Shown here piece after piece: positions 1,411-56,274 of a DNA stretch of 56,274 nt (within the stretch, counting starts at the first letter, position 1; every line of letters begins with the position of its first letter). This DNA comes from Mesotaenium endlicherianum (taxonomy: Eukaryota). The stretch covers positions 62,733 to 119,006 of the forward strand of contig WELA01002181.1 of assembly GCA_009602735.1 (NCBI GenBank), written 5' to 3'. The position numbers were made by a program, and so were the translations under genes. The notes under the pieces were generated by a model, which saw only the letters and a program-made list of their open reading frames with translations, had not been told where the DNA came from and did not search any database.

Positions 1411-4400
1411 TCGGTGAGGATGGCGACGCTGGCGGTGGTGGCGTCGCACACCATCAATGGCGTGTCCACCATCCACACCAACCTCACCAAGACGCGCATG
1501 TTCACCGTCAGTCCCCCTCCCCCCCTCTTCCTCTTTCTCTCTCCCCTTCTCCCCATCCCTCTCTCGTGTGCTTGCGTGTGCACGCGCGTGCTCCCTCGCT
1601 CTCTCTCAGGAGTAAAGAGAGATTGCTCGGTGTGTTGACCCTCCTCCTGGCCAGAGCCGGCTCCACAACTGGCCACACCCTGCACCGCTCTCTTCCCCTT
1701 AGAAGTGACTATTGTAACCAGCCTTGAGCGAGGGGACAGCCTTCTTCTACAGGCCAGCGGTCGACCCTGGCGGCCTCTGCGGGCCTGTGTGCTCTCCCTC
1801 TCTTCTTTCCCCCGCCCTATCGCTCCCCCCTTCTCTCCCTCTCTCTCCTCCCCCCTCTTTGTATCTCTCCCTCTCTCTCCTCCCCCCTCTTTGTATCTCT
1901 CTCTCTCTCTCTNNNNNNNNNNNNNNNNNNNNNNNNNNNNNNNNNNNNNNNNNNNNNNNNNNNNNNNNNNNNNNNNNNNNNNNNNNNNNNNNNNNNNNNN
2001 NNNNNNNNNNNNNNNNNNNNNNNNNNNNNNNNNNNNNNNNNNNNNNNNNNNNNNNNNNNNNNNNNNNNNNNNNNNNNNNNNNNNNNNNNNNNNNNNNNNN
2101 NNNNNNNNNNNNNNNNNNNNNNNNNNNNNNNNNNNNNNNNNNNNNNNNNNNNNNNNNNNNNNNNNNNNNNNNNNNNNNNNNNNNNNNNNNNNNNNNNNNN
2201 NNNNNNNNNNNNNNNNNNNNNNNNNNNNNNNNNNNNNNNNNNNNNNNNNNNNNNNNNNNNNNNNNNNNNNNNNNNNNNNNNNNNNNNNNNNNNNNNNNNN
2301 NNNNNNNNNNNNNNNNNNNNNNNNNNNNNNNNNNNNNNNNNNNNNNNNNNNNNNNNNNNNNNNNNNNNNCCCCTTCTTTTCCCTGGGCCCCCGAATCGTG
2401 CGCAATCAATGCGCTGCACGTCCCCGTGCAGAACAGGGTCCTTGATTTGTTGACCGGCCAGCTGGCAAAGCCACGTGTCTCTCCCTCCCTCTCTGTCTTG
2501 CTAATCTCTTCTATCCTCCTCCCTCCCCCGCTCCCTCTCTTTCCCTCCCTCTCGGTGTGCTGCGCGCTGGCCTTCCCTCTTCAGCTGCACCGCACCCCGC
2601 CTTCACACTACCCACTCGACAGCCCTGCTGTTTGAACATCGGGGGGGAAGCGCAGCTTGTTGCGCACATATCCACCCCCGTGTGCACCTGTGCCTGTGCG
2701 CGTGTGCGTGTTTGGCCCGGAGATGCCTCTAAGCGTGTGGGCTGGAGTGTGTGCGTGGGCGTGGGCGTGGGCATGCTGGCTGGGGAGAGGGGAGCAGAGG
2801 CGGTGGCTGGCCTTCTGCAACCCGGGACTGGGCGACGTCATCACGCAGCGCCTGGGCACGGAGGCCTGGCTCACGGACCTGGACCTGCTGGCCGGCCTGC
2901 GCCAGCACGCCGACGACCCTCTGCTGCACCGCCAGTGGAACCTCGTGCGCTATCTCCCCTTTCCCCCCCTCCCCCCCCNNNNNNNNNNNNNNNNNNNNNN
3001 NNNNNNNNNNNNNNNNNNNNNNNNNNNNNNNNNNNNNNNNNNNNNNNNNNNNNNNNNNNNNNNNNNNNNNNNNNNNNNNNNNNNNNNNNNNNNNNNNNNN
3101 NNNNNNNNNNNNNNNNNNNNNNNNNNNNNNNNNNNNNNNNNNNNNNNNNNNNNNNNNNNNNNNNNNNNNNNNNNNNNNNNNNNNNNNNNNNNNNNNNNNN
3201 NNNNNNNNNNNNNNNNNNNNNNNNNNNNNNNNNNNNNNNNNNNNNNNNNNNNNNNNNNNNNNNNNNNNNNNNNNNNNNNNNNNNNNNNNNNNNNNNNNNN
3301 NNNNNNNNNNNNNNNNNNNNNNNNNNNNNNNNNNNNNNNNNGGGGGGGGGGCGGGGGGGCAGGCCCCTCAACGCTTAAAACCCAGAAGTGGGGGGGCTGT
3401 CGGGGTCAAGGGACCAACAAAGCGCTGACGGGCGAGCGGGGGCTGGGGAGGCGGCAGGTGAGCATCGACGCCATGTACGACATCCAGGTGAAGCGCATCC
3501 ACGAGTACAAGCGCCAGCTGCTCAACATGCTGGCCATCATCCACCGCTACGACTGCATCAAGGTCCTCTCCCTCTCCCCCTCGCCCCTGCTCCTGCCCCT
3601 GCTCCTGCTCCCGTTGTTGGACCTCCCCTTTTTCCCTCCATTGTGGCTGCTGCTTCTTCTCTTCCTGCTGGTCTCTGAATCCTTCCTGCTTCCTGCACGC
3701 CTCGTACTTAATGTGACACGCGTAGGCACATATGGATGGCCATGAGCACAGGCTGGTGTGCTTGCCTGCGTGGGTGCGTATGCACCACCACGACTCTGTG
3801 CGCGCTGCACGGGCGCAGTCCTCCTCTCTGCACAAAGGGTCGTGTCTCGAGAGAGCTGACGTGAGAACACCCCCTCGCGGCGCCTGGCGGCGGTGCTGGG
3901 GGCTGGGGCTGGGGCTGGGGCTGGGGCAGAACATGACGGCGGAGGAACGCAAGCACGTGGTGCCGCGCGTGTGCATCATCGGCGGCAAGGCCGCGCCCGG
4001 CTACGAGATGGCCAAGTGCATCATCAAGCTGGTGGACGCCGTGGGCCAGAAGATCAACAACGACCCCGACGTCGGCCACCTCCTCAAGCTCGTCGGCCAC
4101 CTTCCCTTGCCCCCCCTCCCCCTCCCCCTCCTCCNNNNNNNNNNNNNNNNNNNNNNNNNNNNNNNNNNNNNNNNNNNNNNNNNNNNNNNNNNNNNNNNNN
4201 NNNNNNNNNNNNNNNNNNNNNNNNNNNNNNNNNNNNNNNNNNNNNNNNNNNNNNNNNNNNNNNNNNNNNNNNNNNNNNNNNNNNNNNNNNNNNNNNNNNN
4301 NNNNNNNNNNNNNNNNNNNNNNNNNNNNNNNNNNNNNNNNNNNNNNNNNNNNNNNNNNNNNNNNNNNNNNNNNNNNNNNNNNNNNNNNNNNNNNNNNNNN

Positions 4401-9671: not shown

Positions 9672-9790
9672 CCAGCTCAATCTGTGGAAGGTCATAAGCG
9701 GTTCTTTACGTTACAGCATTTGCATCATCCAAAACTCTCACAGCATCTGTACAATATACATTTTTGCTTCTATACGAACAACAAATTAGA

Positions 9791-24472: not shown

Positions 24473-25329
24473 ACTGATAGTAAGCTGGCACAAGGTATCG
24501 ACGTTGGTACTTTGCTTACAAGAGGGTCACGAAGACCATCCTGCTCAAGCCTCACACACGTCCTATCAGCTCCTCAAGGTCGCATCTCGAGCATTGTGTG
24601 CTTCATTGCGTTTAGCCTGGAAGTGCTCTCGCCAAGTTGCCCTCTCTTGCCCATGGTTGCCTGGAGCTGATATATCAGGCAATTGTATATTCAGTTCTAA
24701 AAATGTACCAGGTCTACAACCGCAATATCTTGCCGGTTCCACGTGCTGCCACGAGGTTGAACAGGGTAATTGCGCAGGATTAGTAACCGAAAACAGAACG
24801 CGGAAATACAATATAAAACGCCATGAAAAAATTGTACAGATCTGGTCTAAAAGTAAAGCTTGGACAATCTTGACGCGTTTACGCGCAATTGTCCCAATTT
24901 GTCCCAGTTCATCCAATATTGCTCGGGTCAGCGCGGGTACCAACTCCATGGTATTAACCGGGGCAGAACTGGGGTGTCGAAAGTGCCTGGCAAGTGATGC
25001 GTGCGGTGTCAACCTTCATGCCATCACGACCTTTTGCTGCAAGACACTCGAGTTCCATATTCTGCATGTTTGTGTTGTCTTATTGCTTGTGTCTTTGGCC
25101 GGTTGTCATCCTTCCTTCTTCGTAACACATATCTTATCAGTGTAGAGTACTTTAAATATTTTCAATTTTCCGTGTCTTACCCTGAAACTCCAGACGAGCG
25201 TTATCGCTAGCAGATAATACGTCCAGTCAAACGTCTATTGCCATCTATATAGTCTGACATTACTCTGTGTGCTTGTCTTGATAACGGCACTTTGACGTCT
25301 AGCACCAACGGTTCTGGAAGGTCATAGCC

Positions 25330-28265: not shown

Positions 28266-29749
28266 ATATGATAGTGGGGCTTGTATGTAGAGTGAGAGAA
28301 GAAGGTTTTAGGTGAAAATGCTGTCAAGTTTGCCTTTCCCAGTGGGGATTGTTTGAGGCTCATGTAGGTAGCTTCATATGGTATATGACAGGCTTCTTCA
28401 GGTTTCGTAGAAATGATTCAAGCCGATGTGTTTATACATCAATTCCGAGTTGCTGATGACTATGTGTTCATCAACTAACTTCTTGTGACAAGGCACTGTT
28501 GTAGACCCAGTTCGGGCTCGTTCACTAATATGAAGAGAGCATGGTAAAATCTCAAGTGGGGGTTTGTGACTTCGGGTCTGGGCTCGTCAATCCTGTCCTG
28601 ACTTGAGGATGTATTCTGAAATATTCCAGAGCCAATCTGCTCTGCCTGCACTGTGTTTCGCCTTGAGATAATTTTTGAAAGGACGGGCTTTCTTACAAAC
28701 AGCATGTGGGTGGTAATAAGCAGTCCTATTCCAGGACGTGGTGTAAATCAAGTGCACCAAGATGCACTGATTGCGTTCGTGAGTAGATGCGCAGCTGGCT
28801 ACAAACATGTCACGTGCATTTTTTCAGGTAGGAATAGACGTGCGCAGTACCTACTCGGGAAAAATAGCAAGATGCTCATGCCACAAATGAGCAAAAAATG
28901 AGTAACGCTAGAGCACATCCATGCGACAACCGAGGTGAAGTGATGGATATAAGAGTTCGCTATAACCAAAAATGTAGACGGTGTTACATTGGCTGACGGC
29001 TTTGTACAATGTTCTCTTCGTATCCAACGTACACGTATTACAGTATCGGTGGTGAAAAAGCTAGGCCTAACTTTCAAATAGCACCGCTTTACACAAATGT
29101 CAGATAATCAATTCCTGCTTCACAAAACTAGCCTACTGCCAGGTTGCCCTGCATTGTATGATACATTTTTGTCGCCTGTTGCAGTTCATGAGCTTGGAAG
29201 TCCACTAAGAATGTTCCTGAGGTTCAGAACAAGAGCTGCCCTCCTTGCATTGCGCCTCACTCGATGGAAGCCCATACGTTTGTCAAACTGGCTGCATTTC
29301 ACATGAAGCAGCATAATTGGTCAGGAGGAAGCAGAGGGATTTCAAAGAGCTGCCCCGCAACAGGACTGGCCATGCAAAGAGCAGCCCAGGTCCAACAAAC
29401 AAAGCCAGTTGCACAGGCCACCAGCAAGAAGAGCACCCTGCGCAATGCACGCGCCTCATCGCGCCAGCGCAATTCGTCAACAACATCTATCGTGCAGACC
29501 AGATGCACCCAAAACAGGCAGCACGCCACACACCACCTGGTCAACCACGCAGTCTGCTCCCCCGTCCATGCAAGCCAGCGAATGACATGAAGAAGCAAAA
29601 GGTTAGGTGGTAGAATGGAAGAGATGGTCCCGGCCGTACCATGATGGAGCAGAACCCAAACCTTGGGTGCACTTGGCCATTAGCCGCCTGTCTGTAGGTG
29701 GGCATGCTACTCCCGGTGCCATTGACAAAAGCGGCACGCAGTACTGTCT

Positions 29750-32700
29750 CTACTGGCTGAGCGCGTGCACATCAGCCTCCGACATGAGGGTGCCGTTCTT
29801 CGTGCTCAGCTTGTCGTACGGCTGCGCCATCCGCCTCAGGAACTGCGGCAGCGGCAGCTCAACGGGTCAAATTCATCACGTCAGAACGAGCTCACTATTG
29901 AAAAAAGGCAATCACCCATCAAAGTCCGCAAGCTGACACCCAGTGGCATGAGTAGAGGCAGCTGCAACCCTAGATCAGCCTGCCCACCCCAACGCAAGCA
30001 AGAAGGGGGCGGGCTGCTAGTGCCCCCTCGCCCTCTTGTCCCTCCCCATCTGATGCCCTTGAGCACAATTGGGGTCATATGATGCCACGTGTCAGCAAGT
30101 GAAGAGTGGCACGGGTGTGCAAGGGCGTCAGTCATCCCATCGCCAAGCACAGCTCGGTATCTTCTGGTGCGAGTGCGTGGGCGGGGCGCTTGACGCGGGC
30201 AGAGCGGGAGGGAAGTCTCGCACCTCGCGAGCAATGTGCAGCGCCATGTCAGTGCTGAGGTTGAGGTGCGCGTCCTTGAGGAACGACAGGATCCACCCCG
30301 GCAGCTTCGACCGCTTGTCGTGCCGGTTGTACCTGCTCAATCTCACCCTCGCATCACGCACGCCCGCACGCCCGCACGCGCGCACCCTCAGATGACAGAG
30401 GTGGCAACGGCGAATCCAAAAGAACAAGCCGGAGTTGAACCAACACAGCGCGCAATTGCCGCCGGAGAGGCGGGGAAGGTGATGCATGCACACACACTCT
30501 ATCATCACCCAGGACACGTGGTGGCCGTGAAGAGTGCATGTGGCAGCAGACGTGGATACCATGTCAAGGTCGCCTCCGGAGTTCATTCAAGCGGGACTCA
30601 AGCGGCACACTTGCAGAGGACAGCAGCAGAGGAGTGCAGGGCTGCCCTCGCAGCGATGGTGGCCCGCCTGGCTTAAAAATGCACGCAGAAGGGAAGAGTG
30701 CTGGCTTCCCGGCTGCACGACCACATGGAGCTCCTCGCAGCCGCTGTCACCAGCTGGCGACAGCCGCTGTGCTGGAAGTCCCCACCAGCAGCACATGCTC
30801 TCCTTCCACACAGGCTCAGGCTCCACTTAACCATCGCCTCTCCTGGGCCTCATCCCGCTGCTGCTGCTGCCGCCGCAACAGCTACTGCTGCTGCTGTTCC
30901 TTGTGCTGGTCTGATATGCCACGATTGGGACTCAACGTTGCTCCTCTAAGATTGACAGGCGGTGAAGAGGGAGAAAAGCATTCAGGGAGGAAGGAGCAGG
31001 GGGGAGTGCGGGGCAGAGGAGTGGGGCGAGGCGTGGGCATGGCAGAGCGCGCACCTCTTGTCGGCGAAGATCATCATGCCGTAGTCGGACTTGGAGCGGA
31101 TGACGCGCCCCACACACTGCGCCGCCTGCCTCTGCTCTCCTCCCACCCATCTCCCCCAAAACACACATACACGCGTGCATCCACGTGGATGATGGAGCAC
31201 AGGGAAAGTGTGTGAGTTGTGTGGGTATGAAAGAGTGGGAGGGAGAGAAGAGGACAGGGACGAGGTTGCGACAAGCACCACGCCCGTGTGCAAGTTTCGC
31301 TCCCCAGGGTCAATGTAGAGGGAAGGGAGAACATGCCGCCTTGATTCTGACATCATAGCGATTGTCCCGGCCATGACTACCTCTTTGATAAGGGGAGGCA
31401 ATCTGTGAGCACACATGCACCACTGGGAGAAGGAAAGGCAGGAGCGGCAGCAGCGGCAGCGGCAGCAGTTTCGGGGGCAAAAGGAGGAAGTCGATTGTAG
31501 GAGGGAGGAGGGAGGAAGGAGGAGGGAGGGGAGGAGACAGACCACGGCGTCAAAGGTGAGGAAGTCGCCCTCCTTGATCTGGAAGGTGTCGCGCAAATAC
31601 TCCAGGCGCGCCCTCAGGATCCTGCTGAGGGTGTACTGGAAGGGCACGCCGTACATGATCACCAGCCGCCCATAGTGCCGGTCAAAGTCGATGCCCTCCG
31701 CCACCTTCCCCCTGCGACAGCCCCAGCTGCCATGGCCCATGAGGCGCCTTCTCTCCCCCAGCAGCTCGTGCCTTGCGCGCGGCGGCGCTTCACGCCAGCC
31801 AGGCACGCGTCTGGCAACTTGCAAGGGAGGCGCACCGTAGCAACATGCAGGACATAAGGGGGAGGGAAGAGGCTGGCCAGGGGGATGGGGGGGGGAGCGG
31901 GTGGGCAGAGAGGGGCGGGGAGAGCCAGAACGAGGTGGAGGAGGAGTGCTCAGGAGCCAGGGGGGGGCGGGGCGGGGCGGGCCGCCACCTTGCAACGGAG
32001 AGGAAGACGGCGCCGCGGCCGCAGTCGCAGGCGCGGCGGTAGTTGTCGAGCGCCAGCGTGGTCTCCACCACGTCTTGCGTCTCGATGAACAGCAGCTTGT
32101 GCCGCATCACGTCCTGCCGCCCCCCTCAGGTGCCCCCGCCCCATCCCCCTCCCCCCCGCGCATGCTCCCCACGGCCCCGATCAGCCCTAGTTGACCCAGC
32201 ACACGCAGCAACTGCAGCAACCGCAGCAGCCGTAGCAGCAGCAGAAGAAAAGAACGAGAAACAGGCAGGTTCCCTCAGTCGGTCTGTCGTTCGAGAGCAT
32301 TTTCCCCTACCTCATCCTGTCTTTCTTCCGCATGAAGGGAGAAGAGAGGCCGTGGTGTTTGCAACTGGGTTAATCTGCTGCAGAGCAGCAATCTCTTCCC
32401 CGTCCCCCTCCCCCCCTCTCTGCGTGCCACCCAGCACATTCAGATACGCATGAGACACGCGTCCGAGACACCTGGCAGGGAAGGCAAGGTATGCGCATGT
32501 GCATGTGCACGTGCACGTGCGCGTGAGACTGTGAATTGCCTTGCCCCCTCACTCTCCCATCCGTCAGCTCTCACAAGCGACGGTGCAACCAGGCCTCTCT
32601 GGGGCACGCCCTGACCTTGTAGTAAGACAGTGAGGTCATCCATTTACTGCTCTTCTGCACGCGCCCCTTAAGAGACATGAGCAGGGAGAGCATGGCGCCT

Positions 32701-35700
32701 TCTGGGTTCATGGGGAAAAGTAAACCACTGGCCAACAGCTTAAGGGGGGCGGAGGTGGGGGTTTTGAAGGGGGTGNNNNNNNNNNNNNNNNNNNNNNNNN
32801 NNNNNNNNNNNNNNNNNNNNNNNNNNNNNNNNNNNNNNNNNNNNNNNNNNNNNNNNNNNNNNNNNNNNNNNNNNNNNNNNNNNNNNNNNNNNNNNNNNNN
32901 NNNNNNNNNNNNNNNNNNNNNNNNNNNNNNNNNNNNNNNNNNNNNNNNNNNNNNNNNNNNNNNNNNNNNNNNNNNNNNNNNNNNNNNNNNNNNNNNNNNN
33001 NNNNNNNNNNNNNNNNNNNNNNNNNNNNNNNNNNNNNNNNNNNNNGGGTTTTGAAGGGGGTGGGGGGTGGGGGTGGGGAAGGGTTGAGGTTTGAGGGGGG
33101 GCACTAGCAAGCTGGCAAGACAGATGGCAGACCAACGCGCAGCAGTGCTATAGATGGACAGGCGGCGCGCGGCACAGCTGGGGCAGCACAAGTGGCGGAA
33201 CACGGCGAGCATGCGTGCGTGCATGCGTGCGCTCTACCTTGAGGATGCCCATCTCGTTCCAGCTGTTGACGATACCGTCCATGTACGAGTAGCTGACGAA
33301 GAAGCACACGATGCCATCTGGCACCGTGGCGGCCATGTCCGTCAGCAGCCGCCCGTAGTTGCGGACGACGCCGGGGTCCGAGCGCATGTCGAACTTGGTG
33401 CTCACCGCCAGCTGGTCGCTGCAGCACCAGCGGCAGCACCACCACCACCACCAGCAGCAGCAGCAGGAGGAGCAGCAGGAGCAGCAGGAGCACCACCCAC
33501 CATGAAGACGAAAGAATTTGTCAATAATATCACCAAAAGCCCAGTCACCCCCCCCCAAGTGCCCAAGAAGAATTACAGTACACCACCACTGACGAAGAAC
33601 AAGAAGCACAACGAGAGCGAGCCCTCAGCACAGCAAGCCTCACGAGGAGGAGAGACGCGATCCTCCCCACTGCTTTGCAGGCTGGTGCTGGGTGCCCTGC
33701 CTGGGGCTGGCTCGAAAAAACTGCCTTGTGAGGCAAGCCACCTGGCAGCTGCCTCTGGCACCAGCACGAGGAGGAGGCGTGCAGGGTGTGCCTCTCATCA
33801 CTCTTCCTCCCTCGCTCGCAAGCAATGGGGCCCCACATGAAGGCAGAGAGCAGCCAGGGCTGGTCACTTGCAGGGCGAGCATGGCACGGCACGGCAGCTA
33901 GAGGAGAAAGGCCGAAGATAAGAGGGCAACCAATGATGCCACACGTTGCGTGCATGATTGTGGCTTGCTCTGGGCCAAGCACCCCTCCGGCAGTTCTGAA
34001 GGCATTTACACGCTCGCACGTCCGCCCTCAGAGAGTTCCTGCTTGCCGGTGCTTCTTGATTAAGGAGCGCCGTCTGAAGAGACTGCGTATTCAACATGGG
34101 GAGCAGAGGAGGAGCAGAGCCCGAGAGATGAAGGAGGAGCGGCATAGACACCACCCGCGCTGCCATTGCCGTCGCCTTCAACCCCCCCTCCCCCCCCCCC
34201 CACAGGAGNNNNNNNNNNNNNNNNNNNNNNNNNNNNNNNNNNNNNNNNNNNNNNNNNNNNNNNNNNNNNNNNNNNNNNNNNNNNNNNNNNNNNNNNNNNN
34301 NNNNNNNNNNNNNNNNNNNNNNNNNNNNNNNNNNNNNNNNNNNNNNNNNNNNNNNNNNNNNNNNNNNNNNNNNNNNNNNNNNNNNNNNNNNNNNNNNNNN
34401 NNNNNNNNNNNNNNNNNNNNNNNNNNNNNNNNNNNNNNNNNNNNNNNNNNNNNNNNNNNNNNNNNNNNNNNNNNNNNNNNNNNNNNNNNNNNNNNNNNNN
34501 NNNNNNNNNNNNNNNNNNNNNNNNNNNNNGGGGGGGGGAAGGGAGGGGGGGGCTGTGTACCTGCCGCGGGTGAGCACCATGGGGCAGAGGCAGTCGCGCG
34601 CGAGCGACATGGCGAAGGAGCGGATGGTGACGGGGCTGAAATTGAGCAGGCGCGGGTACAGCTCGATGGGGCTCAGCGTGCCGCTGGTGATGACGACGCT
34701 CTGGAAGCGCTCGAACACGGGGCGCACCGCCAGCGAGGCGTCCAGGCAGCACAGCTGCAGCACGGGGTCGCGCACGTGCGGCATGCGCTCGTCAAACGGC
34801 TCGATGATGAGCGCAAAGCCGCGCTCGTACGTGCCCACCAGCGTCGCCAGGTCGCACACGCCCGCCAGCGGCGCGAGCTCCTCCGTGTCCGCCACCTCCA
34901 GCGTGAGCATGAGGGAGCCCAGGCGGTCGTAGCAGAAGCGCAGCGAGCGAGCGTCGATGGCGGTGGCGCCGGCGAGCGCCGCCAGGAACGCCGCAGGGCC
35001 CTCGGACTCGACCTGCGTGGTGGCCATGCGCGTGCGCAGGTACTGCACGAAGCGGCGCAGGAAGGCCACAAAGTGCTCCGCCTTGCGGATGTTGCCCGGC
35101 ACCGCCTCGCGCAGGATGTCGTCCGGCAGCGCCGGGTTCGCCAGCCACGAGTCCGTCGCTGCTCCTCTCCCCCCCACACCCCTCACCCGCACGAAAAGAG
35201 CGTGAGAATGGAACAGAGCGAGAGAGACAGGACGCCTACAGCGCTCGACTACACTGAGAGAGAGAGACAACGAGGGGAAGACATAGGCTCACAAGGAGCC
35301 CAGCAGCAGGCATGACAGGAGGCAAGGATACAGGACTAGGTGAGAGAGAGAGAGAGGGGGGGGGTGCAGAGAAAGACAGCGGCAGGGGAGAGAGAAGGGG
35401 CAGACCTGGGAGGTTGCCTCGCTGCGCCAAGCCCTCCACAAGGCGGTTGTACTCCTCCCTCAGCCGGCTGGCGTCTGTGGCCTTGAACCTGCTCCTCTTC
35501 CCCACCAACACAAACCGCGCGCACACGCCCGGATAGTCATACACCCTGATTGGGCACTGCAGACTTCCGATACAACTGTAAAGAAAGAGTCTGAGAGAGG
35601 GGGGGAGGGGGGGGAAGGGTGGGGTGGAAGGGTATAGGGAAGTTATCTTGGGCACGAGGAGGGTGGGGATGAGCAGCGAGGGAGGAAAGGGCAAGGGGGG

Positions 35701-44890: not shown

Positions 44891-47374
44891 GCCTGCAAGG
44901 TAGGCATTGGTTGCGCAGCTTAAACCTGCTGGTGTGCTACTTACTAGTCATCGTTGTATCTACACTCCTGGCAAGTAGATGGACATGCAACACTAACATC
45001 TCACATTTGGGCTCACCATGGTTATTCTTCAAACAAAGTGCCGGTATAGTTGCCTTGAGCAAGATATTTGGGCAATAGTGTGTCTCAACAGGGCTTGATG
45101 TATGCGTAGAATTGCACAATTTTTCCCAAATACTGCCACTTTGCCGATAGTGGACTTTGATGTCCTCACGCTGACATACGGTTGGACTCCTCCAACAGCA
45201 AGTGTCTTCATGGTCCATCCTGATGACAACATACATGTTTTGGGCTAGGGAATCTATATTTGAAATAGGAACTTCAAGTATGAGAAGGCTGGTTTCAATT
45301 TGGACAGGAGCATATTGCTTGCCCTTGCTACCGCAGTTGCCATCTCAATACATACTTATTGGTGAATTGAAATATTGAACATACAACGCTTATACTTCAA
45401 CACGCCAACGCATGTGGATGTGTATGTATTATAATGAAGCAATTAAAACCATAACGAGCATCCTAACCCGTGCCAAATTATTAGAGAGAGGCTGTCGGAT
45501 TATAACTCTACTACTTTATACATATGAGTCGCTAAAATCCACAGTACTGTGACACACGAGCTTTGCTAAGGGATCAAGAAATGTATGTCATTTACATCAA
45601 CCTAGAACCAGCTACTACTTTTTGAGTGTCTTTTACTCTCGCGTTTCACAAGAAAAATATGCACATCAATGGCATCTCGGCACCAGCAATCACTTCCATT
45701 ATTAACCCAATCTGCATAATAGTAATAGTACGAGAAGACATATATCACAAGGAGACCTCTCATGCTACATCAAACATGAAGTCAATGCAAAAGACGTTCA
45801 AATGAAAGGAAAGTTTATCAAGCAATAGTTTGAATGATTGCTATCAATGTCTAGGCGGATGCAACATCGCGCATAATCATTTTTTGTTGATCTGTTTTGA
45901 AGTATTGGTGTCTATGCCTCTCATATAACAACAAAATTAAGAAACGACTTGGTGCCTCACGGCAAACTATACGGGGAAGCTTGTTCACAAGAGGCACTTT
46001 ATCGCAAGAAAACTATACATTATACAACTTAAAAAAAGAACAAGTTTGAGGTGACGCACTTTTTGTATCTATGAACTTGCATAAAACATTACATGGTACT
46101 TTTTCACAAACATAATAAGAGCAAGGTCTATTGTTCGCATTTTTACAAATCACACTTGTTTCATTCTCATACTACGACCCAAATTGCTTGGCAACGATAG
46201 CAGTCAAATAAACATACCCCTGTATGACGAAAGTGGACGGTTCCCGACAGTGTACACAACTTACTCTGAGACATCTTATCACTCATAAGACGTATCCTGA
46301 ACTTGTGGCGTGACGGGCGTCGGTACTTTTCTTGGCTCATGTTCATGATGCCCCATAAGCCATTATGTGGCAGCACAATCACATAATTAATTCTTTCCAT
46401 TGTGTACAACAGATCTGTTCTCCTTGAATCTCATGGTCAAATTTTCTCAATTCGTGATAGGCTTGAATGACATGGTTTAAAAGGTAAAAGTGAGTATAAT
46501 CATGAAAGAAGTCAAAATGTGTAGACCAATGATGGGACCTTTTGCTTGTTGTATTATTGACAATTAGTCTCCTTCTCCTAATTCAATTAATGTCATTGAA
46601 CTGCACCATAATTGGTAGTTGTTTTAATTTAATTACACCTATTTCTTCCTTTACCTTCCCTCTATGGTATGTACTCTTCGATGCCCATATATGCTATCAT
46701 GTCCAAGGTGCTATAGAGAGGAATAGATGAAGAAGTTCTAGAGGTACGAAGAAAGTGATTTAGTGAGTACTTAAAAGGAGGACGTGAGATCGTGGATATA
46801 TTCTACGCGTGTGAATAGAGTGAGAAACAACGTGCATAGAGAATAATGACACATGTGAAGCTACCGACTGTGTAAAGTGTGGAAGGTCATTGTTACGAAC
46901 ATCGACAATGTTATTTTCAGTGTTTAGTGACTTGGCGCTGACACTTTGTACTCAAACTGACTCAAACATAATGACGTCTCGCATTTGATCACGTCCAAAC
47001 CGTATAAGCGTTGGTGTCGGCCATCTGTCCGCCTTCAGGCAGCCCAAATCAGCAAAATTGTCCGGGCAATTCTGAAGTCCACGTCGGAAATGTGAGAGCC
47101 TACGCAAGCATCTCTTGTTCAGTCCATAAGATTCATACGGATCGAGCTCTTAGAAGACCACCGACAGTTCGTTATCATAGTGTAAAACGCAGGAGCATGC
47201 AGGAGTTGCTCGTTAGGAACCGGACTAAATTAATCTCTGATGGATCAAGGCTTTAACATAAAGAGGTTTTGAGTGTAAAGCAGCAAACACCACTCCCTTC
47301 ACTCCGAGGAATGGACGCACTTTCGCGCATTGCACTGTGAACCACGCTAGGCCCCATTGTTCATCGACGGCAAA

Positions 47375-50300
47375 ATGACACGCCAAGGACATCTTTCTGC
47401 TGTCCTTCATGCAGTTCTAGCTCAGGTGGATGCCTGGTAGCTTTATAATATCGCAGCCATACCTCTACTTTCAGCTTGGGTGTCTTTCATGAGCTCATGC
47501 ACGAGTGCTATTTGTTTTGGCAGGCCCTCATATGTTGGACAATTTCGAGCACCATCATCCCATCAGCGGCATGGGAGCTGTCTTTTTCCGAACCTCTCAT
47601 GTATAAGTGATGCACTTACTTCTAACACTCGTCATTTCATCCTGACTTGCAAGTCATACTTTGCCTCACTGACTTTGCTTGAAGCCTTAAATTGTGGACT
47701 CCCTCCTTGTGTTTTTCTCGTCTTTTATGCTCTGCCTTGTCCGCACATATGCAATTGAGACGTAATTCGATGATTTGACCTTGGCTGCCGCGCATATGCA
47801 GGCCGGTCATCCATGAGAGCGGGTACTGCTCCATGTACGACACTTGTGGGCAGCGCGAGGATGGCAAGTATCTGAACTGCCCTCTCAACGTGCCAGCTGT
47901 CCAGGTACGACCAATGCTCAACCAGTCGTAACAGTAACCATTTCATGCATGCATATTCTTTCTCCCTCCCTCCTGCTGCAGGACCCCGCAACTGTCTCCT
48001 GGGATCCCTTCCCCCATTCCAACCCTTCCTTCTTTCCTAGACGGAGAGAAGCTTGTTTATCAAGGGTGCAGCAGGACAGGTGGGATAGCATCCGGCAGCC
48101 CTCTGTGTAGCTTCTGAGCTCTGATGGATGGTGTGGTTGTGGGTGAGTGACACGTGGCGGGTGCAGCCCACTCGTCAGCTGTCAGCCAAGATCCAGAGCC
48201 TCTGCCCGACAATCACGGGCAGCATCTGCTGCACGGAGCAGCAATTTGACATCCTCCATGACCAGGTCAAGCAGGTGCTGCATCGCCGCCCTCGCCTCGC
48301 CCTGCCCTTGATCTCTTTCCCCAGTTGGCCCGTTCCCTCGCTATAACGACTCCGGACCTCACTGGCTTGAGCCTTCTAAAATGACAGTTCTTTCCAACAA
48401 CCCTCCCCCGTACCGGGGTGAGGAGGAGGGGGGGAGGGGGAGGGGGGATGGGAGACATTAATTAGTGTCGGCATTGTCTCCTTCACTAAGCAAATTCATT
48501 GTCCACGGACAGAATTCAACAGTGTCTCTCAGCCTTGCACAAAGAGGAGGTCAAGCATTTCGGTAGATGCGGTGCGTGCGTCAGCAATAGGCAGCTCGCC
48601 TTTGAGTTTGACCTTTCACTCTCGCTTTTGCTCCCTCGTTCCACCGTGTGAGGTTGCTTCCAGTCCAGTACTAGCAGTTGCTTGTATGGTCCTTCAGATT
48701 ACGCACTGTACTTTGTGTTGCTATAAACTTTCCCTTGTATTGGGAGGGAGGCAGGGAGGGAGGGAGAGAGAGAGTGATGGCTTCAGTTTCCTGCCTGCAT
48801 GAGCTCGCCGTGACGTCAATCATGCGCACTCCGCAACGCGAGTGCCGAGCGTGTTTGCGCTTGACGGCCACGCACGACTGGTTAGGAGTGACCCGCAACT
48901 CGNGGGGTGTAGGGGGGAAGGGCGGGGGGTGGTTGTGCAAGGTGCGGCGTGCTGGCTGCTTGCTGGCAAGTTGGCTAAGACAGCACCTCCAAAAGGGGGG
49001 CGAGGGAAGAGAGGGTGCAGATGACACCAGCAGGGACACGCCCATTCTTCCTTCACGTTCGCATATGAGCTGTGCCTCGTAGGCGGGCGTGCTTCGTTCG
49101 AAGGAATTCTTGGACATGGTCGATCCGGGCTCCCGAAGAGGAAGCTCTGCGCAATCGATGAAGATTCCAATCCTGCTTGCAAATTGAACGAGGGAAGGAG
49201 TTAGTTCGTCATGTTTTGCGGGAGGAGTGTGCGCTGAAGTTGGGCTTGAGGGTCCTGTCTGCTCGCCGGCTCTGCATGCTCACGCCTGAGTGCCGCCGAG
49301 AGCACGCCTAAGGCTTGCCGCTTGGTCTGTGCTTGGCCGGCTGACTGGCCGGCCAGTCCGCTGGCCGACTTGACTGACCGACGAGACGACAGATGGGAGC
49401 GTGATGGACAGGCAAAGTGGCGCACAGTCGAATGGAGGGGTATGCTTACTGACCAATTGACAGACAGGAGAGCGTCTGTTCTTTGTATTTTCTTAAATTT
49501 TCCTATTTTATTTGGGGGGGGGGGGCTTGCGGCGGGCGCAGGCGGTGCCCTTTCTGGTGGGGTGCCCCGCGTGCCTGAGGAACTTCCTGACATTCTTCTG
49601 CACGCTGGCGTGCTCGCCCTCGCAAAGCTTGTTCGTCAATGTCACCGCCACTGCCCCGGTCCGCCACTCACCCATCCTCCCTCTCCTCTCTGTTCGTCCC
49701 CGCTCACTCCCTTTCTCTCCCCCCCCCCTCTTCCCCTCCCTCTCTCCCTCCCACGTTCCCACCCGCCCCGTTCCCCCCCTCCCCTCTTCCTCAGCGTCCC
49801 CGCCTGATCTTGAGCTGAGAACCATTGAGCTTGTTGTCGCAGGGGGGTGTCATCACAGCGTGCGTGCGCGCGCGCGTGTCCCTTTTCTTGACGTCTGAGT
49901 CCCTCTGTCTGGGTCCTCCTGGTGGCGGCGGCACCCCCCCTCCAGCTGTCTCAAGGTCGGATATCAGCAGGCCAACTCGTGACTGGGCAGGAGATACGCC
50001 GGTTGAAGAGCGCATGTGTGGGAGGCCACTTGCAAAGCCAGAGAGAGAGAGAGAGTGGGAGGGCGGAGAGTGGGAGGGCAGGAGGGAGGGAGGGAGGAAG
50101 GGAGAACTTCTGGATCTCTGCATGAGCCAGTGGGCCTTCTCGGAAAGACGGAGGCGGGAAGGGTGCTGCCGCTGCACACTCTCAGGCAGGAGGACTCTGA
50201 GCAGCCGCACACAGCCTCCCGCGGAAAGAGCGGACGGCCATTCCTCTCACTCATCCGACCTCTCCCCAGACCTCTTCTCCTCCCCCCTCCCTCCCCCCCT

Positions 50301-53300
50301 TTCCCCTCCTCTTCTTCCGGCTGCTTCTTGTGCTCCTGCTCCTTTGCATGCGGCCATCGCTTGCAGAGCCCTTGCCGCACATACTTTAAAGTCGGGAGAG
50401 GGGAGCGAGAGGTGATGGGGTCTCTATCTCTGCTGTTTTCTGCTCACCTCCACACTGTGGCAGGCGCAGGTGCAGGTTCAAAGCGCATGCTGGTCCTTCC
50501 CCATGCCCCTCCCCCTGCCCCTGAACCTGCCTCTGCCTGCATTTAGTCATGCTTGGGAGCCCTCCACGTGTCATGCCACTGTTGCGAGAGCGAGCGAGAC
50601 GTGCTCGAGACGGCTCTGGTGTCCGGTCCACTCCCGCTGACTGCACTTGCGAGCAGCCCCCCTGTGTGCCACTGTCAGAAAGAGCAACGCGGAGGTAGAG
50701 AGAGAGAGGAATGCAGGCAGGCGCAGGGCTCTCTCATGATGCTTAATCTCTCCCTCTCCCTCTCGTCCTGGCCCTCCGTCCGCGCCTGCCCCCCCCCCCC
50801 CCCCCCCCCNNNNNNNNNNNNNNNNNNNNNNNNNNNNNNNNNNNNNNNNNNNNNNNNNNNNNNNNNNNNNNNNNNNNNNNNNNNNNNNNNNNNNNNNNNN
50901 NNNNNNNNNNNNNNNNNNNNNCCCTCCCCTCCCCCCGCCCCTACGCCCTCAAATGTAAGCGTTGCTCAAGAGGGGCAGCTTCCTCCTCGAATCTCCTGCC
51001 ACTCCATACCGTGCGCTGTGAGCCATGCACGGTGTGGGTCCATGCAAAACACGCCCCGTTTCTTCTCCTCGGTTTGTTCCTCGGTTCCCTTGAAGCCCGG
51101 AAACAACACTGGATCTACCTCCCTCGAGCATCTTCTCTCCTCGCCACCTTCTGCCCTTCATGACTCGGGTACGGCTCTGGCCTCTCATATGCTGACACGT
51201 GGCGTCCAAGTATTGCTTACTGGAGCCTCGGGCAGGGGTGCGGCTCCTGGCTGTAATCCTGGGCGTGGGATTTAGGGCTTCGGGCTCTAGAGGGAAGAGG
51301 GAATCAAATGTGGGGAGTCCTAAATTCTAGAGGAATCTCGAATCTGTACACACACGCGCATGCACCCTGCAGGAGGGAGAGGAAGAGCAATGCCAGACGC
51401 GCTCGCACGCTCACACATTCGCGCGCCCTTCTCGTCACGCGCATGCGCGCACCGCCCGGGGGGGGGGGGGGTACAGACTGGTTCAAATTCATGGGGCAGA
51501 AGGCGGACCCCTACATGCTGGGCTCGCCCTACGCCATCTCCTTCCCCGACGCCAGCAGCCTGCCACCTGGCAGCCCCATGGAGCCCGTCGACTTCCCCGT
51601 CGCCTCGTGCTCTGACGCGGCGCTCGTGTGCTCGTGCGGCGACTGCCCCTCGGCCAACGGCTGCGAGGAGCCCGTGCCGCCGCCACCTGGCAATCCCCAA
51701 GGCTGCCAGCTCCACTTCCTGGGATATTCTGTGAGCGGGCTCCCACCACCCCTCCTTGTGCCAGGTGTCAATGGCAGGCAGCGCACCGTGTGGTGGCCGC
51801 TCGAGTCCTGTCGGGTCTACGACGTAGTCTTGCTGTGTCTCTCTGTCTGCGTGGAGAAGGTTGTGAGGTTTCCAGAGGTGGAAGACTGGTTCCAACTCAC
51901 AATGCCCCACCACAAGCGTGTGGAATGTGATGTCTATGTGGTGGCCTCACTGTGCAAGGCTGGTGTGACGTGGTGGTAAGCTATGACAACTTCTTGTTGC
52001 TTATGTGTTTCAAGTGGCTATGAAAGCGCTTCATAGACTTGAGATGTGTTTAAGCATGTGTGGTAGTAAGCAAACAGGGAGCACCGCACAACCTGCAGAG
52101 GCGGGCAGAGGGGCGTGCTTCTCATGTGCTCTCCTGTGCATGATGGGGGCTGCTGATCAGGCGTATTGACAACGAGGCTCTTTCTTTCCTTTTGAGTGAT
52201 CGGTATGTGTGCACAAGGGTGTGGCAGCGGCCACGAGTGAGCGCCACATATATAGTCTGTGACATTGCCGCTCTAAAAGAGAAATAGAGTGCAAGCCAGT
52301 CAGAAGCGCATCGAAGGTGTCACTTTGGAAGTCGTGTGACGATTGGAAGGAGCCAATGACGTGTATCAGGCAGTTCACAAGGCAAAAAAAAGATGGCTTG
52401 AATGGGCACAATGAGTTCCGTATTATGAGAAACGAGGGGTCACAGAAAGGGAGGGGGGCATTGCAGGCCGCAGGACAGTGGGAGGACTCACGGCTGTCAC
52501 TGTCCCAATATAGGTCGGTCTCGTATCTCAGAGGGCATCGTTCATATGGGGGCATGCACGGGCGGTTGGTGAGCGGGCGGCAGGCACGGTGCGGTGACGT
52601 GGCGCTATACGTCATCTTCATCGCCTACGTGGCGGCGGTGGTGGCGGTGTACAGCAGGTGGGCAGCCGCCCAGCAGAAGGAGGACCCCACCGCCGAAGCA
52701 GCAGAGCCGCTTCTGGCATCCTCAGAGGGCGCCAGGGAGGCGCATGCCACCACTCCTGATGCTGCTGCGGGTGGTGGGGCTGCCAGGGCAACATCTTCAA
52801 GTGAGAGGGTAGGTGTTGCCGTCCCTGTGCGTGCAGGGCTCCCTGGAACGGCTTGGCTGGTCGCTGCCGGCAGCTGCTTGTCTCCTGGTGGGGGGGGTGT
52901 TGGGAGCGCTCTCACAGAGGCCTCAATGTCTGTATTCCATGACTTACCTGCACTCCTTGCTAGATATTGTCAGGCATGGGGGCTCCTGTCGAAGATGTTT
53001 GATTGAAGGGAGGAGCAGGAGGGAATGGAAGGAGGAGAGAGGTGTTTGGGGGGAGGAGTACAAGACGGTTGAGAGATCCTGTCGGGACGGGGGGAGAAGA
53101 GCGAGAGAGATGTTTGGAGAGAGGGTGGAGGGAGAAGAGGGAGAGCGACATCTGGCGCATGAGGGGGGGATGTAGCAAAATCGGTGACTCCCTTAGCCCA
53201 AGTGCCGCATCTGGGTCACGGGCAGCTGTTGGACTGCTGGGAAGCAGCAGAGTGCAGGTCCTGTTATGCGTGTGCTCAAAGGGAAGTGCTGCAAGCATCA

Positions 53301-55149
53301 GCTAGGGGCTGAAGGGATGGGTGGTGGCGGCTCACGGCCTTGAGCAGGAGGGGCGCGAGGGCGACGAGGTCGAGGCTGGCGCGCAGAAGGCCGCCCCAAC
53401 CTCTGGGCTGCAGCAGCTCCCGCCCTTCCAGCTGCACCTCCGCCGGTGGTTCATGTGCGCTGCGCTCTCCCCCTCATACGCTCAACTCCCCTCCCTTGCT
53501 GCCTCTTCCTCTCATATACACATGCTGCTGCCCAGAAGGTGAGCCAGATCTCGTGTGGAGCATGTCCGCACACATATCCGCCTTGTGGGGTGGTGCCAGC
53601 TGTTGACTGGCTGGAGAAGGTACTAATCCCCTGATGACTTACCAACTCTGCTGCCAGCGTGTGTCTCTCCTACTCCTTGCCTTTCCCTTCCTCTCTCCTC
53701 CCTCCCTCCCTTCCTCCACGGCTTCCCAGTGACCAAGCTGTGTTGGCAGCCCTCACAGCTGGCGCACTCCAGGCCAGCTGTGCGGCGCCACCTGTCCGGC
53801 CGTGACTCAGGGGCGCGGCTGAGGCTGAGGGGGACGCAGGTGGCAGGGCAAGTGGGTTGCCACACATCGCGGCTTGGTGCTTGTCGCGGCAGTGGTGGTG
53901 GTGCTGCTGCTCAGCCTGGGCATGACGCGCTTCCGCGTGGAGACCAGCCCCGCCAAAGTACGGCCTCCTCTTTCCCCATGCCCACGCACACCTGCAAAGA
54001 TTTAGTTGCGCTTATATTCGTCTCTATTTCTTGTGTGTGCATACGCGCGTGTCTTCTCTCCCTCCATCTGTGCTGCTGTGTCTCCGTGTTGCAGGTGCTT
54101 TTTGCAATGCCTCCCTCCCAACGAGGCTACATGAAGAAGGATCAGAACGCACCATTCGTGCGCTTGGGACCTCTGGAAGAGTACAGGCAGAGAGAGAGGG
54201 AGGGGAGAGAGAAAGTTGCCCAAGCGGCGTCGTTTGAGTGCTGCACACGCTTGGCAAAGGAAGACAGACGCCGGATAAATGCTTCGCATCAGCACAAGGC
54301 AGTGCCCCTGCCCCTCGCCCGCCTCTCCCCGCACCTCGACCTCCTCCCCGTGGCTGACAAGCGGCGCTGCCCACTGGGCTCCCTTGTGATGGGTGAATGT
54401 GAGTGCAGCTGTGGGTGGGCGCCGCAAGCCAGGCGGCGAGGGAGAAGGCTATCTACGACGCCCACCTGGGCCCCTTCTACCGCATCGAGCAGGCTCGTTG
54501 CTGCCAGCCCCCTTGCCCCTCCGCCCCCCCGCCCCCCCAATTTGCATGAAAGGCGAAGCAAGAAGAAGCATGTACTTAAGCTCCTAGCTCTAGGCTGGCT
54601 CAATGATGACGATGATGATGACGATGATGATGCACAGGTGTTGGGGCCGTGCCAGCTCATGTGACTTGTTTCTTCTCCTTCCTGCCCGCCGACCCTAGGC
54701 TCTCAGATGGCATATTGTGTTGCCAGCGTGTCGCACGTAAATCTCCACATACATTTGCCCCTCTGTCCTCGAGGGGGATTGAAGCCCGGCCATCAAGTTG
54801 CACCTCTCTCTGTAGGTCGTGTCTCCTCTCGTACTTTTGCACGCACGCGCGTGCGTCTGTGCGTGTTTTTTGTGTGCGCGTGCGCGTGCGTGTGTGTCTC
54901 TGTGCGTGTGTGCGTGTGCGCCTTTACATGGGCATCAATCGGTGATATAGGCCAGCTTGGCCTTGCGCCCTCCCACTACCCTCCTCTGCCAGCACTCTCC
55001 TGCATTGCACCATGGTGACGCTCATGGGGCATGGGGAGGGAGTGGGGGCGCAGCTGATCATCGGGACAAAGCCCGCGGGGCCAGGGCAGGCAGCGCCCGC
55101 CATCGTGACGGACGACAACCTGCAGCTCCTCTTCACTCTGCAGGCCAAG
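47375..55149 (+). CDS. NPC1: Niemann-Pick C1-like sterol transporter, 5' part (incomplete at window end)
   Basis: Exons 47375-47425, 47524-47606, 47802-47904, 48167-48274, 49542-49658, [missing exon], 51477-51730, 52584-52808, 53348-53454, 53840-53957, 54409-54492, 55054-55149. Motifs GYCSMYDTCGQR, CCTEQQF, GCPACLRNF, CSCGDC, FRVETSP.|LWV, PFYRIEQ|LII. The first two exons and the 53348 acceptor are less certain. Confidence 0.92.
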
Positions 55150-56274
55150 GTGGCTATGCGCCCCTCCTCTCTTTCTCCCCCTCCCCACCCGCCCCCCCCC
55201 CCAATGAAAGCCATTCCNGCTTGGGACCTCTGGAAGAGTACAGGCAGAGAGAGAGGGAGGGGAGAGAGAAAGTTGCCCAAGCGGCGTCGTTTGAGTGCTG
55301 CACACGCTTGGCAAAGGAAGACAGACGCCGGATAAATGCTTCGCATCAGCACAAGGCAGTGCCCCTGCCCCTCGCCCGCCTCTCCCCGCACCTCGACCTC
55401 CTCCCCGTGGCTGACAAGCGGCGCTGCCCACTGGGCTCCCTTGTGATGGGTGAATGTGAGTGCAGCTGTGGGTGGGCGCCGCAAGCCAGGCGGCGAGGGA
55501 GAAGGCTATCTACGACGCCCACCTGGGCCCCTTCTACCGCATCGAGCAGGCTCGTTGCTGCCAGCCCCCTTGCCCCTCCGCCCCCCCGCCCCCCCAATTT
55601 GCATGAAAGGCGAAGCAAGAAGAAGCATGTACTTAAGCTCCTAGCTCTAGGCTGGCTCAATGATGACGATGATGATGACGATGATGATGCACAGGTGTTG
55701 GGGCCGTGCCAGCTCATGTGACTTGTTTCTTCTCCTTCCTGCCCGCCGACCCTAGGCTCTCAGATGGCATATTGTGTTGCCAGCGTGTCGCACGTAAATC
55801 TCCACATACATTTGCCCCTCTGTCCTCGAGGGGGATTGAAGCCCGGCCATCAAGTTGCACCTCTCTCTGTAGGTCGTGTCTCCTCTCGTACTTTTGCACG
55901 CACGCGCGTGCGTCTGTGCGTGTTTTTTGTGTGCGCGTGCGCGTGCGTGTGTGTCTCTGTGCGTGTGTGCGTGTGCGCCTTTACATGGGCATCAATCGGT
56001 GATATAGGCCAGCTTGGCCTTGCGCCCTCCCACTACCCTCCTCTGCCAGCACTCTCCTGCATTGCACCATGGTGACGCTCATGGGGCATGGGGAGGGAGT
56101 GGGGGCGCAGCTGATCATCGGGACAAAGCCCGCGGGGCCAGGGCAGGCAGCGCCCGCCATCGTGACGGACGACAACCTGCAGCTCCTCTTCACTCTGCAG
56201 GCCAAGGTGGCTATGCGCCCCTCCTCTCTTTCTCCCCCTCCCCACCCGCCCCCCCCCCCAATGAAAGCCATTCC
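54162..56274. repeat. Apparently identical 1056-bp tandem duplication (54162-55217 = 55219-56274) split by one N; probable assembly artefact
   Basis: ORF tracks repeat at offset 1057, there is a single N at 55218, and the window ends exactly at the end of copy 2. Confidence 0.9.

What the first reader, a model, noticed from the sequence alone, without database searches (positions are those of the whole stretch)
53455..53839. NPC1 intron whose last 14 nt are complementary to its 5' end
The 5' end reads gtgcg-CTGCG-ctc-TCCCCCTCA (53460-53464, 53468-53476). The 3' end reads TGAGGGGGA-CGCAG (53826-53839), whose reverse complement is CTGCGTCCCCCTCA. That gives 14 Watson-Crick pairs with a 3-nt bulge, including the acceptor CAG and the branch-point-like CTGAG. 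It is the best single example of intron-specific end pairing, loosely reminiscent of end-paired euglenid nonconventional introns while keeping GT-AG.
Basis: seen in the sequence. Interest (0 to 1): 0.75.

Follow-up and report, generated by a model that had tools for sequence, protein, structure and literature searches.

The report
Reversed intron-end polarity in Mesotaenium alga
This is a real intron of the alga Mesotaenium whose two ends are complementary, but the match is likely a best-case by-product of a wider habit: most introns in this stretch of DNA start C-rich and end G-rich, the reverse of the textbook layout, which suggests an unusual way of marking splice sites in a close algal relative of land plants.

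Summary
The window is Mesotaenium endlicherianum. Intron 53455-53839 of NPC1 is real: 55 RNA reads in one run join its exons. The 14 Watson-Crick pairs are there as described.

For the last 14-16 nt the match is the best of 49 introns in the window (window-wide p 0.03-0.065, on a statistic fitted afterwards). With 25-40-nt ends, 5-9 of 47-48 foreign 5' ends pair as well or better. The predicted helix disappears when 10 nt of downstream exon are added.

The larger feature is a polarity. 41 of 49 introns are C-rich after the donor and 36 of 49 are G-rich before an [A/G]YAG acceptor, where a pyrimidine tract would normally be. Own ends pair no better than ends across an exon, and the edge over foreign ends is not significant once gene or GC content is matched (p 0.05-0.25). 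A moss-like locus shows the same polarity weakly; a chlorophyte-like locus shows the opposite.

Best reading: an ordinary spliceosomal intron whose helix is a by-product of the polarity. Zebrafish-like bridging remains the main rival. The euglenid register is not met.

The parts
53455..53839 (+). GT-AG intron (385 nt, phase 2) of the NPC1 gene
   Evidence: Read joint 53454->53840, 55 reads in X24; open frame across the joint aligns without a gap to a plant NPC1, P0121; PF16414 NPC1_N on upstream exons
53452..53460 (+). Donor CAT|GTGCGC, the weakest predicted U1 pairing of the 49 introns
   Evidence: Duplex energy -0.2 against a median of -5.3 kcal/mol, with a recalled 9-nt U1 motif
53460..53476 (+). 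5' arm of the terminal duplex (53460-53464 and 53468-53476), inside a C-rich tract (C 0.53, G 0.10 at +7..+46)
53826..53839 (+). 3' arm of the duplex with the acceptor GCAG; G-rich end without a pyrimidine tract (5 of 20 pyrimidines at -23..-4)
53802..53829 (+). Three branch-point-like motifs (A at 53805, 53822, 53828); only the last is inside the duplex; none is mapped
   Evidence: Motif scan; inference only
53671..53720 (+). Internal C/T tract, the predicted competing partner of the G-rich 3' end once flanks are present
   Evidence: Pair probabilities 0.70-0.78 in two flanked folds; duplex -20.9 kcal/mol
53787..53844 (+). Competing 8-bp inverted repeat (53787-53794 with 53837-53844) that spans the acceptor
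   Evidence: the terminal duplex falls to p 0.02 when 10 nt of downstream exon are added
53348..53454 (+). Upstream exon; its purine-rich part is a predicted competing partner of the intron's 5' arm
   Evidence: duplex -29.1 kcal/mol
53840..53957 (+). Downstream exon
   Evidence: Read joints on both sides
31132..31542 (-). XPD intron 6: second case of terminal complementarity (12 anchored Watson-Crick pairs), strongly polarised, at a position shared with a moss-like gene
   Evidence: folding z -4.4 on 20 shuffles; borders from homology, no read joint listed
3563..3929 (+). Phosphorylase intron with C-rich and G-rich repeat ends; the only one of 35 whose end bridge survives folding with 60-nt flanks
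   Evidence: borders from reading-frame continuity
54493..55053 (+). GC-AG intron of NPC1 with the same polarity (C 0.70 at the 5' end, G 0.55 at the 3' end; 10 anchored pairs)
   Evidence: 79 reads in X24

Best explanation
This is a GT-AG intron of Mesotaenium NPC1 with a C-rich start and a G-rich end, like most GC-rich introns in the window, and its 14-pair end match is likely the best-case by-product of that polarity rather than a helix selected for this intron. Shown: the intron is spliced at these borders; the polarity is window-wide and confined to about 45-65 nt at each end; acceptors are [A/G]YAG (48 of 49 CAG) with little pyrimidine tract; ends pair about equally well with own, neighbouring and GC-matched foreign partners. 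Inferred: the major spliceosome removes the intron, and the two ends are read separately by proteins. A C/U-rich tract behind the donor would help U1 onto weak donors such as this one, and a G-rich tract plus GCAG would stand in for the pyrimidine tract. Any C:G pairing would be loose, interchangeable and short-lived.
For: Polarity: C>G at +7..+46 in 41 of 49 introns, G>C at -43..-4 in 36 of 49, Wilcoxon p 6e-9; 29 and 26 of the 31 introns with GC >= 0.52; intron interiors have skew 0.02; 8 of 8 further half-introns agree. No sequence-specific own match: mean z -0.03 and 0.05 for own ends against 0.05 and -0.04 for foreign pairs. Across-exon pairs are as stable as own pairs (p 0.47-0.93, n 37-39); 5' and 3' skew of one intron are uncorrelated after GC control (r 0.05). 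Predicted probability of this helix is 0.9-1.0 alone, 0.00-0.02 with 10 nt or more of downstream exon or 60 nt or more of upstream exon. End bridges of 5 or more pairs appear in 18 of 35 introns folded alone and 1 of 35 folded with flanks. Polarised introns are only 4% more stable than shuffles (n 9). Weaker U1 pairing goes with a more C-rich 5' tract (partial r 0.39, p 0.006, n 48). All 8 coding XPD introns sit at positions shared with the moss-like locus L068, which shows the same polarity weakly (9 of 10 introns, p 0.004).
Against: The narrow terminal match is rarer than composition predicts: window-wide p 0.028-0.065. Two own pairs of 49 reach 12 or more anchored pairs against 0 of 2352 foreign pairs. 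Own ends are slightly more stable than permuted ends in nearly every test (0.3-1.5 kcal/mol; p 0.05-0.25 after matching; one test went the other way). CCC-rich starts and GGG-rich ends co-occur in 5 of 49 introns against 2.0 expected (p 0.015), but 5 against 3.1 within GC-rich introns. CTGC, the complement of the acceptor, is in +3..+30 of 17 introns against 7.8 in shuffles, though it is also common inside introns. The U1 correlation may partly reflect C bias reaching into donor positions +4 and +6. Equilibrium folding ignores proteins and co-transcriptional order. No binding protein was identified.
Confidence: 0.5

Rival explanations
1. Class-level bridging as in zebrafish (AC)m-(GT)n introns: C-rich starts and G-rich ends pair in any register, bring the splice sites together and replace pyrimidine-tract recognition by U2AF65. 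This intron would be one good example, and partner specificity would not be expected.
For: The ends are complementary by composition; acceptors lack a pyrimidine tract (0.5 or less pyrimidine in 30 of 49); 7 of 9 strongly polarised introns bridge when folded alone, against 11 of 26 others; the helix survives with 10-20 nt of upstream exon and no downstream exon, close to the state when the acceptor has just been transcribed; XPD intron 6 has z -4.4.
Against: Zebrafish repeats co-occur across introns and not exons (PMC4691745); here 3' G skew correlates at least as well with the next intron's 5' C skew (rho 0.49, n 39) as with its own (0.26, n 49). Native/shuffled stability is 1.04 here against about 1.33 there. 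Bridges vanish with flanks in all but 1 of 35 introns.
Confidence: 0.22
2. One reading: this particular 14-pair helix was selected. It would hold a very weak donor next to its acceptor, or hide the AG until it is unwound, and a minority of introns (this one, XPD intron 6) would work this way.
For: Best partner for its last 16 nt among 49 5' ends; window-wide p 0.03-0.065; weakest donor of 49; a second case in XPD intron 6.
Against: The statistic was shaped on this example; longer windows remove the signal; three competing pairings of similar or greater strength exist; burying the AG would be expected to hinder acceptor recognition (own knowledge); no orthologous intron was available.
Confidence: 0.12
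3. The polarity itself is nearly neutral: simple C- and G-runs expand next to splice sites through mutational bias or weak selection against cryptic sites, and neither the tracts nor the helix do work.
For: Polarity rises with intron GC (rho 0.62 and 0.50); the tracts are low-complexity and vary in motif; AT-rich genes nearby splice with weak polarity.
Against: The skew is strand-specific, flips sign between the two ends, is flat inside introns and holds on both strands of the window, which a uniform transcription-linked bias would not give; the sign is shared with a moss-like locus and reversed in chlorophyte-like loci.
Confidence: 0.12
4. The intron came from a small DNA transposon: 53460-53839 would be the element with decayed terminal inverted repeats, and GTGCG before it a decayed 5-nt target duplication of GTGGC, giving the donor.
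For: The geometry fits: the inverted match starts at +6 and ends at the last base; GTG is repeated at both junctions.
Against: Only 3 of 5 letters of the supposed duplication match, and GT is expected there anyway; no second copy of the 9-nt 5' arm on this strand of the window; the similar XPD intron 6 sits at an old position shared with L068. The age of this NPC1 intron position was not tested.
Confidence: 0.04

Closest known systems
Zebrafish/teleost (AC)m-(GT)n bridged introns (Lin et al. 2016, PMC4691745; parts 1-2 of 7 of the text, section 10 and passages read)
   Same: GT-AG introns with complementary low-complexity tracts at opposite ends, a 3' end that lacks a normal pyrimidine tract, and the G-containing tract at the 3' end
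   Different: Tracts here are C/CT-rich and G/GA/GT-rich, not AC and GT dimers (0 of 49 meet the hexamer rule); no preference for pairing across introns over exons; stability over shuffles 1.04 against about 1.33; U2AF independence untested
Human GGG...CCC introns (same paper, section 10)
   Same: G:C triplet complementarity between the first and last 40 nt, with a small stability gain
   Different: Opposite polarity: 5 of 49 introns here are CCC...GGG and 0 of 49 are GGG...CCC
Euglenid nonconventional and intermediate introns (PMC4770533, PMC11170887; passages read)
   Same: Ends can base-pair; intermediate introns may carry GT or GC-AG borders
   Different: The defining +4..+6 / -8..-6 pairing is absent (1 of 3 pairs); here +6 pairs with -1 and buries the AG; all 49 introns have GT-AG or GC-AG borders
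Exon-flanking intronic motif pairs in humans (Ke and Chasin 2010, PMC2945786; abstract and outline only)
   Same: Motifs within about 100 nt of the exon, linked to weak sites and read across the exon, probably by hnRNP-like proteins
   Different: Described in humans with an intact pyrimidine tract; nothing here identifies the proteins

Membership tests
Major (U2-type) spliceosomal intron | GT-AG borders, precise removal from mRNA | tested here: met
   Read joint 53454->53840
Major (U2-type) spliceosomal intron | Donor pairs with U1 | tested here: inconclusive
   GT and +5 G present, but weakest predicted pairing of 49, using a recalled U1 motif, not the alga's own U1
Major (U2-type) spliceosomal intron | Branch point and lariat | not testable with these tools
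   Three candidate As by motif only
Major (U2-type) spliceosomal intron | Pyrimidine tract before AG (weak in plants per PMC12027700 and PMC10946897, passages) | tested here: not met
   5 of 20 pyrimidines at -23..-4; not strictly required in plants, so membership stands
Zebrafish-type (AC)m-(GT)n bridged intron | ACACAC within 50 nt of the donor and GTGTGT within 50 nt of the acceptor | tested here: not met
   0 of 49 introns have both; this intron has neither
Zebrafish-type (AC)m-(GT)n bridged intron | [quoted passage not shown] | tested here: inconclusive
   Energies and skew correlations show no intron preference; triplet counts lean to introns, 5 of 49 against 3 of 39, confounded by GC
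Zebrafish-type (AC)m-(GT)n bridged intron | About a third more stable than dinucleotide shuffles | tested here: not met
   This intron 1.03, z -0.75 to -1.16; polarised class 1.04
Zebrafish-type (AC)m-(GT)n bridged intron | Splicing needs the pairing and not U2AF2 | not testable with these tools
   Needs minigenes and knock-down
Euglenid nonconventional intron | Pairs +4/-6, +5/-7, +6/-8 (mostly CAG/CTG) | tested here: not met
   C/A, G/G, C/G: 1 of 3 (sequence; rule from PMC4770533)
Euglenid nonconventional intron | Non-canonical borders, pyrimidine at the intron's 3' end | tested here: not met
   GT-AG, ends in G
Euglenid nonconventional intron | Compensatory changes in homologous introns | not testable with these tools
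   No orthologous NPC1 intron was obtained
Introner / transposon-derived intron (features recalled) | Family of similar copies | tested here: inconclusive
   None in the window; the whole genome is not held
Introner / transposon-derived intron (features recalled) | Position unique to the lineage | not tested
   No genomic NPC1 orthologue; the XPD introns are at old positions

The most novel reading that the evidence does not exclude
Mesotaenium defines its GC-rich introns by pairing a C-rich start with a G-rich end in place of pyrimidine-tract recognition. This would be a plant-lineage counterpart of zebrafish intron bridging, grown out of a weak polarity also seen in a moss-like gene. In some introns with very weak donors, such as this one, the pairing would be refined into an exact helix that delivers the acceptor AG to the donor.
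Probability: 0.22. Interest if true: 0.72.

Novelty: new variant of a known kind. Interest (0 to 1): 0.4.

Why it matters
The single helix matters little. The polarity behind it means that many acceptors in a close algal relative of land plants (relationship from own knowledge) are preceded by G-rich sequence, while the pyrimidine-rich tract sits behind the donor. How plants recognise 3' splice sites without a strong pyrimidine tract is unsettled. An alga with an exaggerated, reversed signal offers a direct test between RNA bridging and protein reading. It also bears on gene annotation: the JGI model of XPD in this window lacks 14 residues at one such intron, and several assembly gaps sit on these C- and G-runs.

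Tried and rejected
No whole genome is held, so statistics rest on 49 complete introns of this window. Of these, 20 are read-supported and 29 are set from reading-frame continuity or homology; the two TBCA introns were picked from candidate sites without a full frame check. Eight half-introns beside gaps or the window end were left out of pairing tests. Folding tests used 35 of 49 introns (up to 560 nt, no N) and 29 of 49 (up to 460 nt, no N).

The unmatched own-versus-foreign test looked significant (p 0.002-0.012) and was set aside because it falls to p 0.08-0.25 within genes or GC quartiles.

The index listed no RNA holder; RNA runs came by species label. Rfam gave no match at E <= 1 over 53300-54000.

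Two moss papers (PMC1079823, PMC8361020; passages) and PMC4684703 (passages) gave nothing on end polarity in the passages seen. Touchon et al. 2004 on splicing-coupled strand asymmetries (PMC521644) is not held; I saw only its reference entry. It includes skews at intron borders as I recall and may already describe a weak plant version. No supplements were read. The alga's U2AF65 and U1 were not examined.

Full report
Source. The first XPD exon of the window is 100% identical to P0001, labelled jgi/Mesen1. I read that label, from own knowledge, as Mesotaenium endlicherianum, a zygnematophyte alga. No whole genome is held. The gene is NPC1: PF16414 on two exons, and 294 residues from six exons align at 37.5% to a hazel NPC1 with no gap at this junction.

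The observation. The intron runs 53455-53839, GT-AG, and is spliced as read: 55 reads from 30 starts in X24, 1 in X23, none in X21 or X22 (only the 15 best of 22 joints were shown, so minor alternative joints could be hidden). The 14 pairs and the 3-nt bulge are exact. Folded alone, the intron forms them with probability 0.88-1.0, but its overall stability is ordinary (z -1.16). The helix includes the acceptor CAG and the TGAG of one CTGAG, whose A is at -12. Two other branch-like As (-18, -35) lie outside it.

Is it more than chance? I mapped 49 complete introns in eight genes: 20 by read joints and 29 by frame or homology. The answer depends on the window used. Against the last 16 nt, the intron's own start is the best of 49 and beats 999 of 1000 shuffles. 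An anchored Watson-Crick count gives 14 here, 12 for XPD intron 6 and 10 for the next-but-one NPC1 intron, while none of 2352 foreign pairings exceeds 11. Corrected for picking the best of 49, p is 0.028, or 0.065 with a freer anchor, where 1 of 2352 foreign pairings reaches 14. That statistic was built on this example. With 25-40 nt of each end the intron is unremarkable: 5 of 48, 9 of 48 and 8 of 47 foreign starts do as well, and 21-49% of shuffles do. The match is real and marginally rare, not decisive.

Context removes it. Adding 10 nt of downstream exon drops the predicted helix to 0.02. Adding 60 nt of upstream exon does the same; 10-20 nt upstream alone leave it at 0.91-0.98. The competitors are an 8-bp repeat across the acceptor, an internal C/T tract (-20.9 kcal/mol) and the upstream exon (-29.1), against -23.9 for the helix. 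This is general: 18 of 35 introns bridge their ends when folded alone and 1 of 35 with 60-nt flanks. These are equilibrium predictions without proteins.

What is really there. The ends of these introns are polarised. Over all 49, C is 0.43 and G 0.17 at +7..+26, while G is 0.47 and C 0.16 at -13..-4; interiors are balanced. C>G at the start holds in 41 of 49 and G>C at the end in 36 of 49 (p 6e-9); among the 31 GC-rich introns the counts are 29 and 26. Position -4 is G in 42 and A in 7; -3 is C in 48. Pyrimidines average 0.46 at -23..-4 and 0.68 at +7..+26. All 8 half-introns agree. Any start will therefore pair fairly well with any end.

Is the polarity for pairing? Own ends beat random foreign ends (p 0.002-0.012). 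Within genes or GC quartiles p is 0.08-0.25, and 0.05-0.24 without this intron. The direction almost always favours own ends by 0.3-1.5 kcal/mol, so a small effect is not excluded. Against shuffles that keep composition there is no class signal (summed statistic p 0.33 and 0.44). An end pairs as well with the next intron's start across the exon, and skews correlate at least as well across exons (rho 0.49) as across introns (0.26). Polarised introns are 1.04 times as stable as shuffles (9 of the 29 folded), with XPD intron 6 the exception at 1.18. Weak donors go with C-richer starts (partial r 0.39, p 0.006), and this intron has the weakest donor of the 49. That fits a tract that helps its own splice site, although C bias reaching into the donor could produce part of it.

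Relatives. The XPD scan gave 69 loci; I modelled introns in 23 of them. L068 groups with the moss Ceratodon in a quick tree (SH-aLRT 96). It shares all 8 coding intron positions with Mesotaenium and shows the same polarity weakly: C 0.24 and G 0.14 at starts, C 0.14 and G 0.26 at ends; 9 of 10 introns, p 0.004. The chlorophyte-like L066 is reversed in 16 of 16, as are L020, L058 and L053; L048 and L049 have C>G at both ends; AT-rich plant-like loci mostly show G>C at the 3' end with little 5' skew. Borders in these loci are from homology only. The polarised XPD introns are therefore old, and the polarity looks like an exaggerated streptophyte trait. That rests on one gene and few lineages.

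Mechanism. Shown: precise splicing, polarity, lack of a pyrimidine tract, interchangeable ends. Inferred: removal by the major spliceosome with each tract read at its own splice site, and the 14-pair match as a by-product (0.5). Rivals: interchangeable bridging as in zebrafish (0.22), a helix selected for this intron (0.12), neutral skew (0.12), transposon origin (0.04).

Comparison. Lin et al. 2016 (PMC4691745) showed that AC and GT repeats at opposite intron ends pair, are needed for 3' site choice and, per abstract and heading, free the intron from U2AF2; they also noted human GGG...CCC introns. The Mesotaenium ends could work like that, but fail the hexamer and stability criteria and have the opposite polarity to the human class. 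Euglenid nonconventional introns pair +4..+6 with -8..-6 (PMC4770533); this intron makes 1 of those 3 pairs and is not a member.

Novelty. Ten searches listed no paper on this polarity in Mesotaenium or Zygnematophyceae. I judged most hits from listings only, subscription papers are missing, and Touchon et al. 2004 could not be read. The scan has no note on this genome and one loosely similar case in an unrelated parasite.

Verdict. Observation confirmed, interpretation partly supported. The single helix is of low interest. The reversed polarity is a new variant of a known kind and worth a genome-wide test. Interest 0.4.

Noticed in passing
window 54169-55217 and 55226-56274: Exact 1049-nt duplicate (0 mismatches) with a single N between the copies; likely an assembly artefact.
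   Followed up: partly
window 54493-55053: GC-AG intron with donor CAG|GCTCGT, supported by 79 reads in X24.
   Followed up: partly
window 49659-51476: Reads leave the assembly at 49659 (48 reads) and re-enter at 51476 (41 reads) with sequence not in the window, so at least one NPC1 exon is missing, probably in the gap 50810-50921.
   Followed up: no
window 47200-55200: NPC1 is well covered in run X24 (mean depth about 14-26 in exon-bearing bins) and below about 1 in X21-X23, while neighbouring genes are covered in all four; possibly condition-dependent expression.
   Followed up: no
window 29292-29639 (-): Read-supported intron in the XPD 3' UTR, starting about 110 nt after the stop codon at 29752-29750; such introns can trigger nonsense-mediated decay (own knowledge).
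   Followed up: no
window 33419-34560 (-): The JGI protein P0001 lacks 14 residues around this XPD intron that the window encodes and homologues have; likely an annotation error.
   Followed up: partly
window, eight N gaps of 20 nt or more: Nearly all are flanked by C- or G-runs, several right at intron ends, so the most extreme tracts are under-represented in this assembly.
   Followed up: partly
window 5048-5065 and 5140-5170: The same 10-letter word with a CACGTG core stands on both sides of a 74-nt phosphorylase exon; best across-exon duplex against shuffles (z -2.6).
   Followed up: no
L068:8910-13298: Moss-like XPD gene whose 10 introns show a weak version of the same C-start, G-end polarity.
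   Followed up: yes
window 9790-13400 and 25329-28265: AT-richer genes (TBCA by Pfam; ELIP-like and SNF7-like by recall, no Pfam hit on the exons given) have weaker polarity than GC-rich neighbours.
   Followed up: partly
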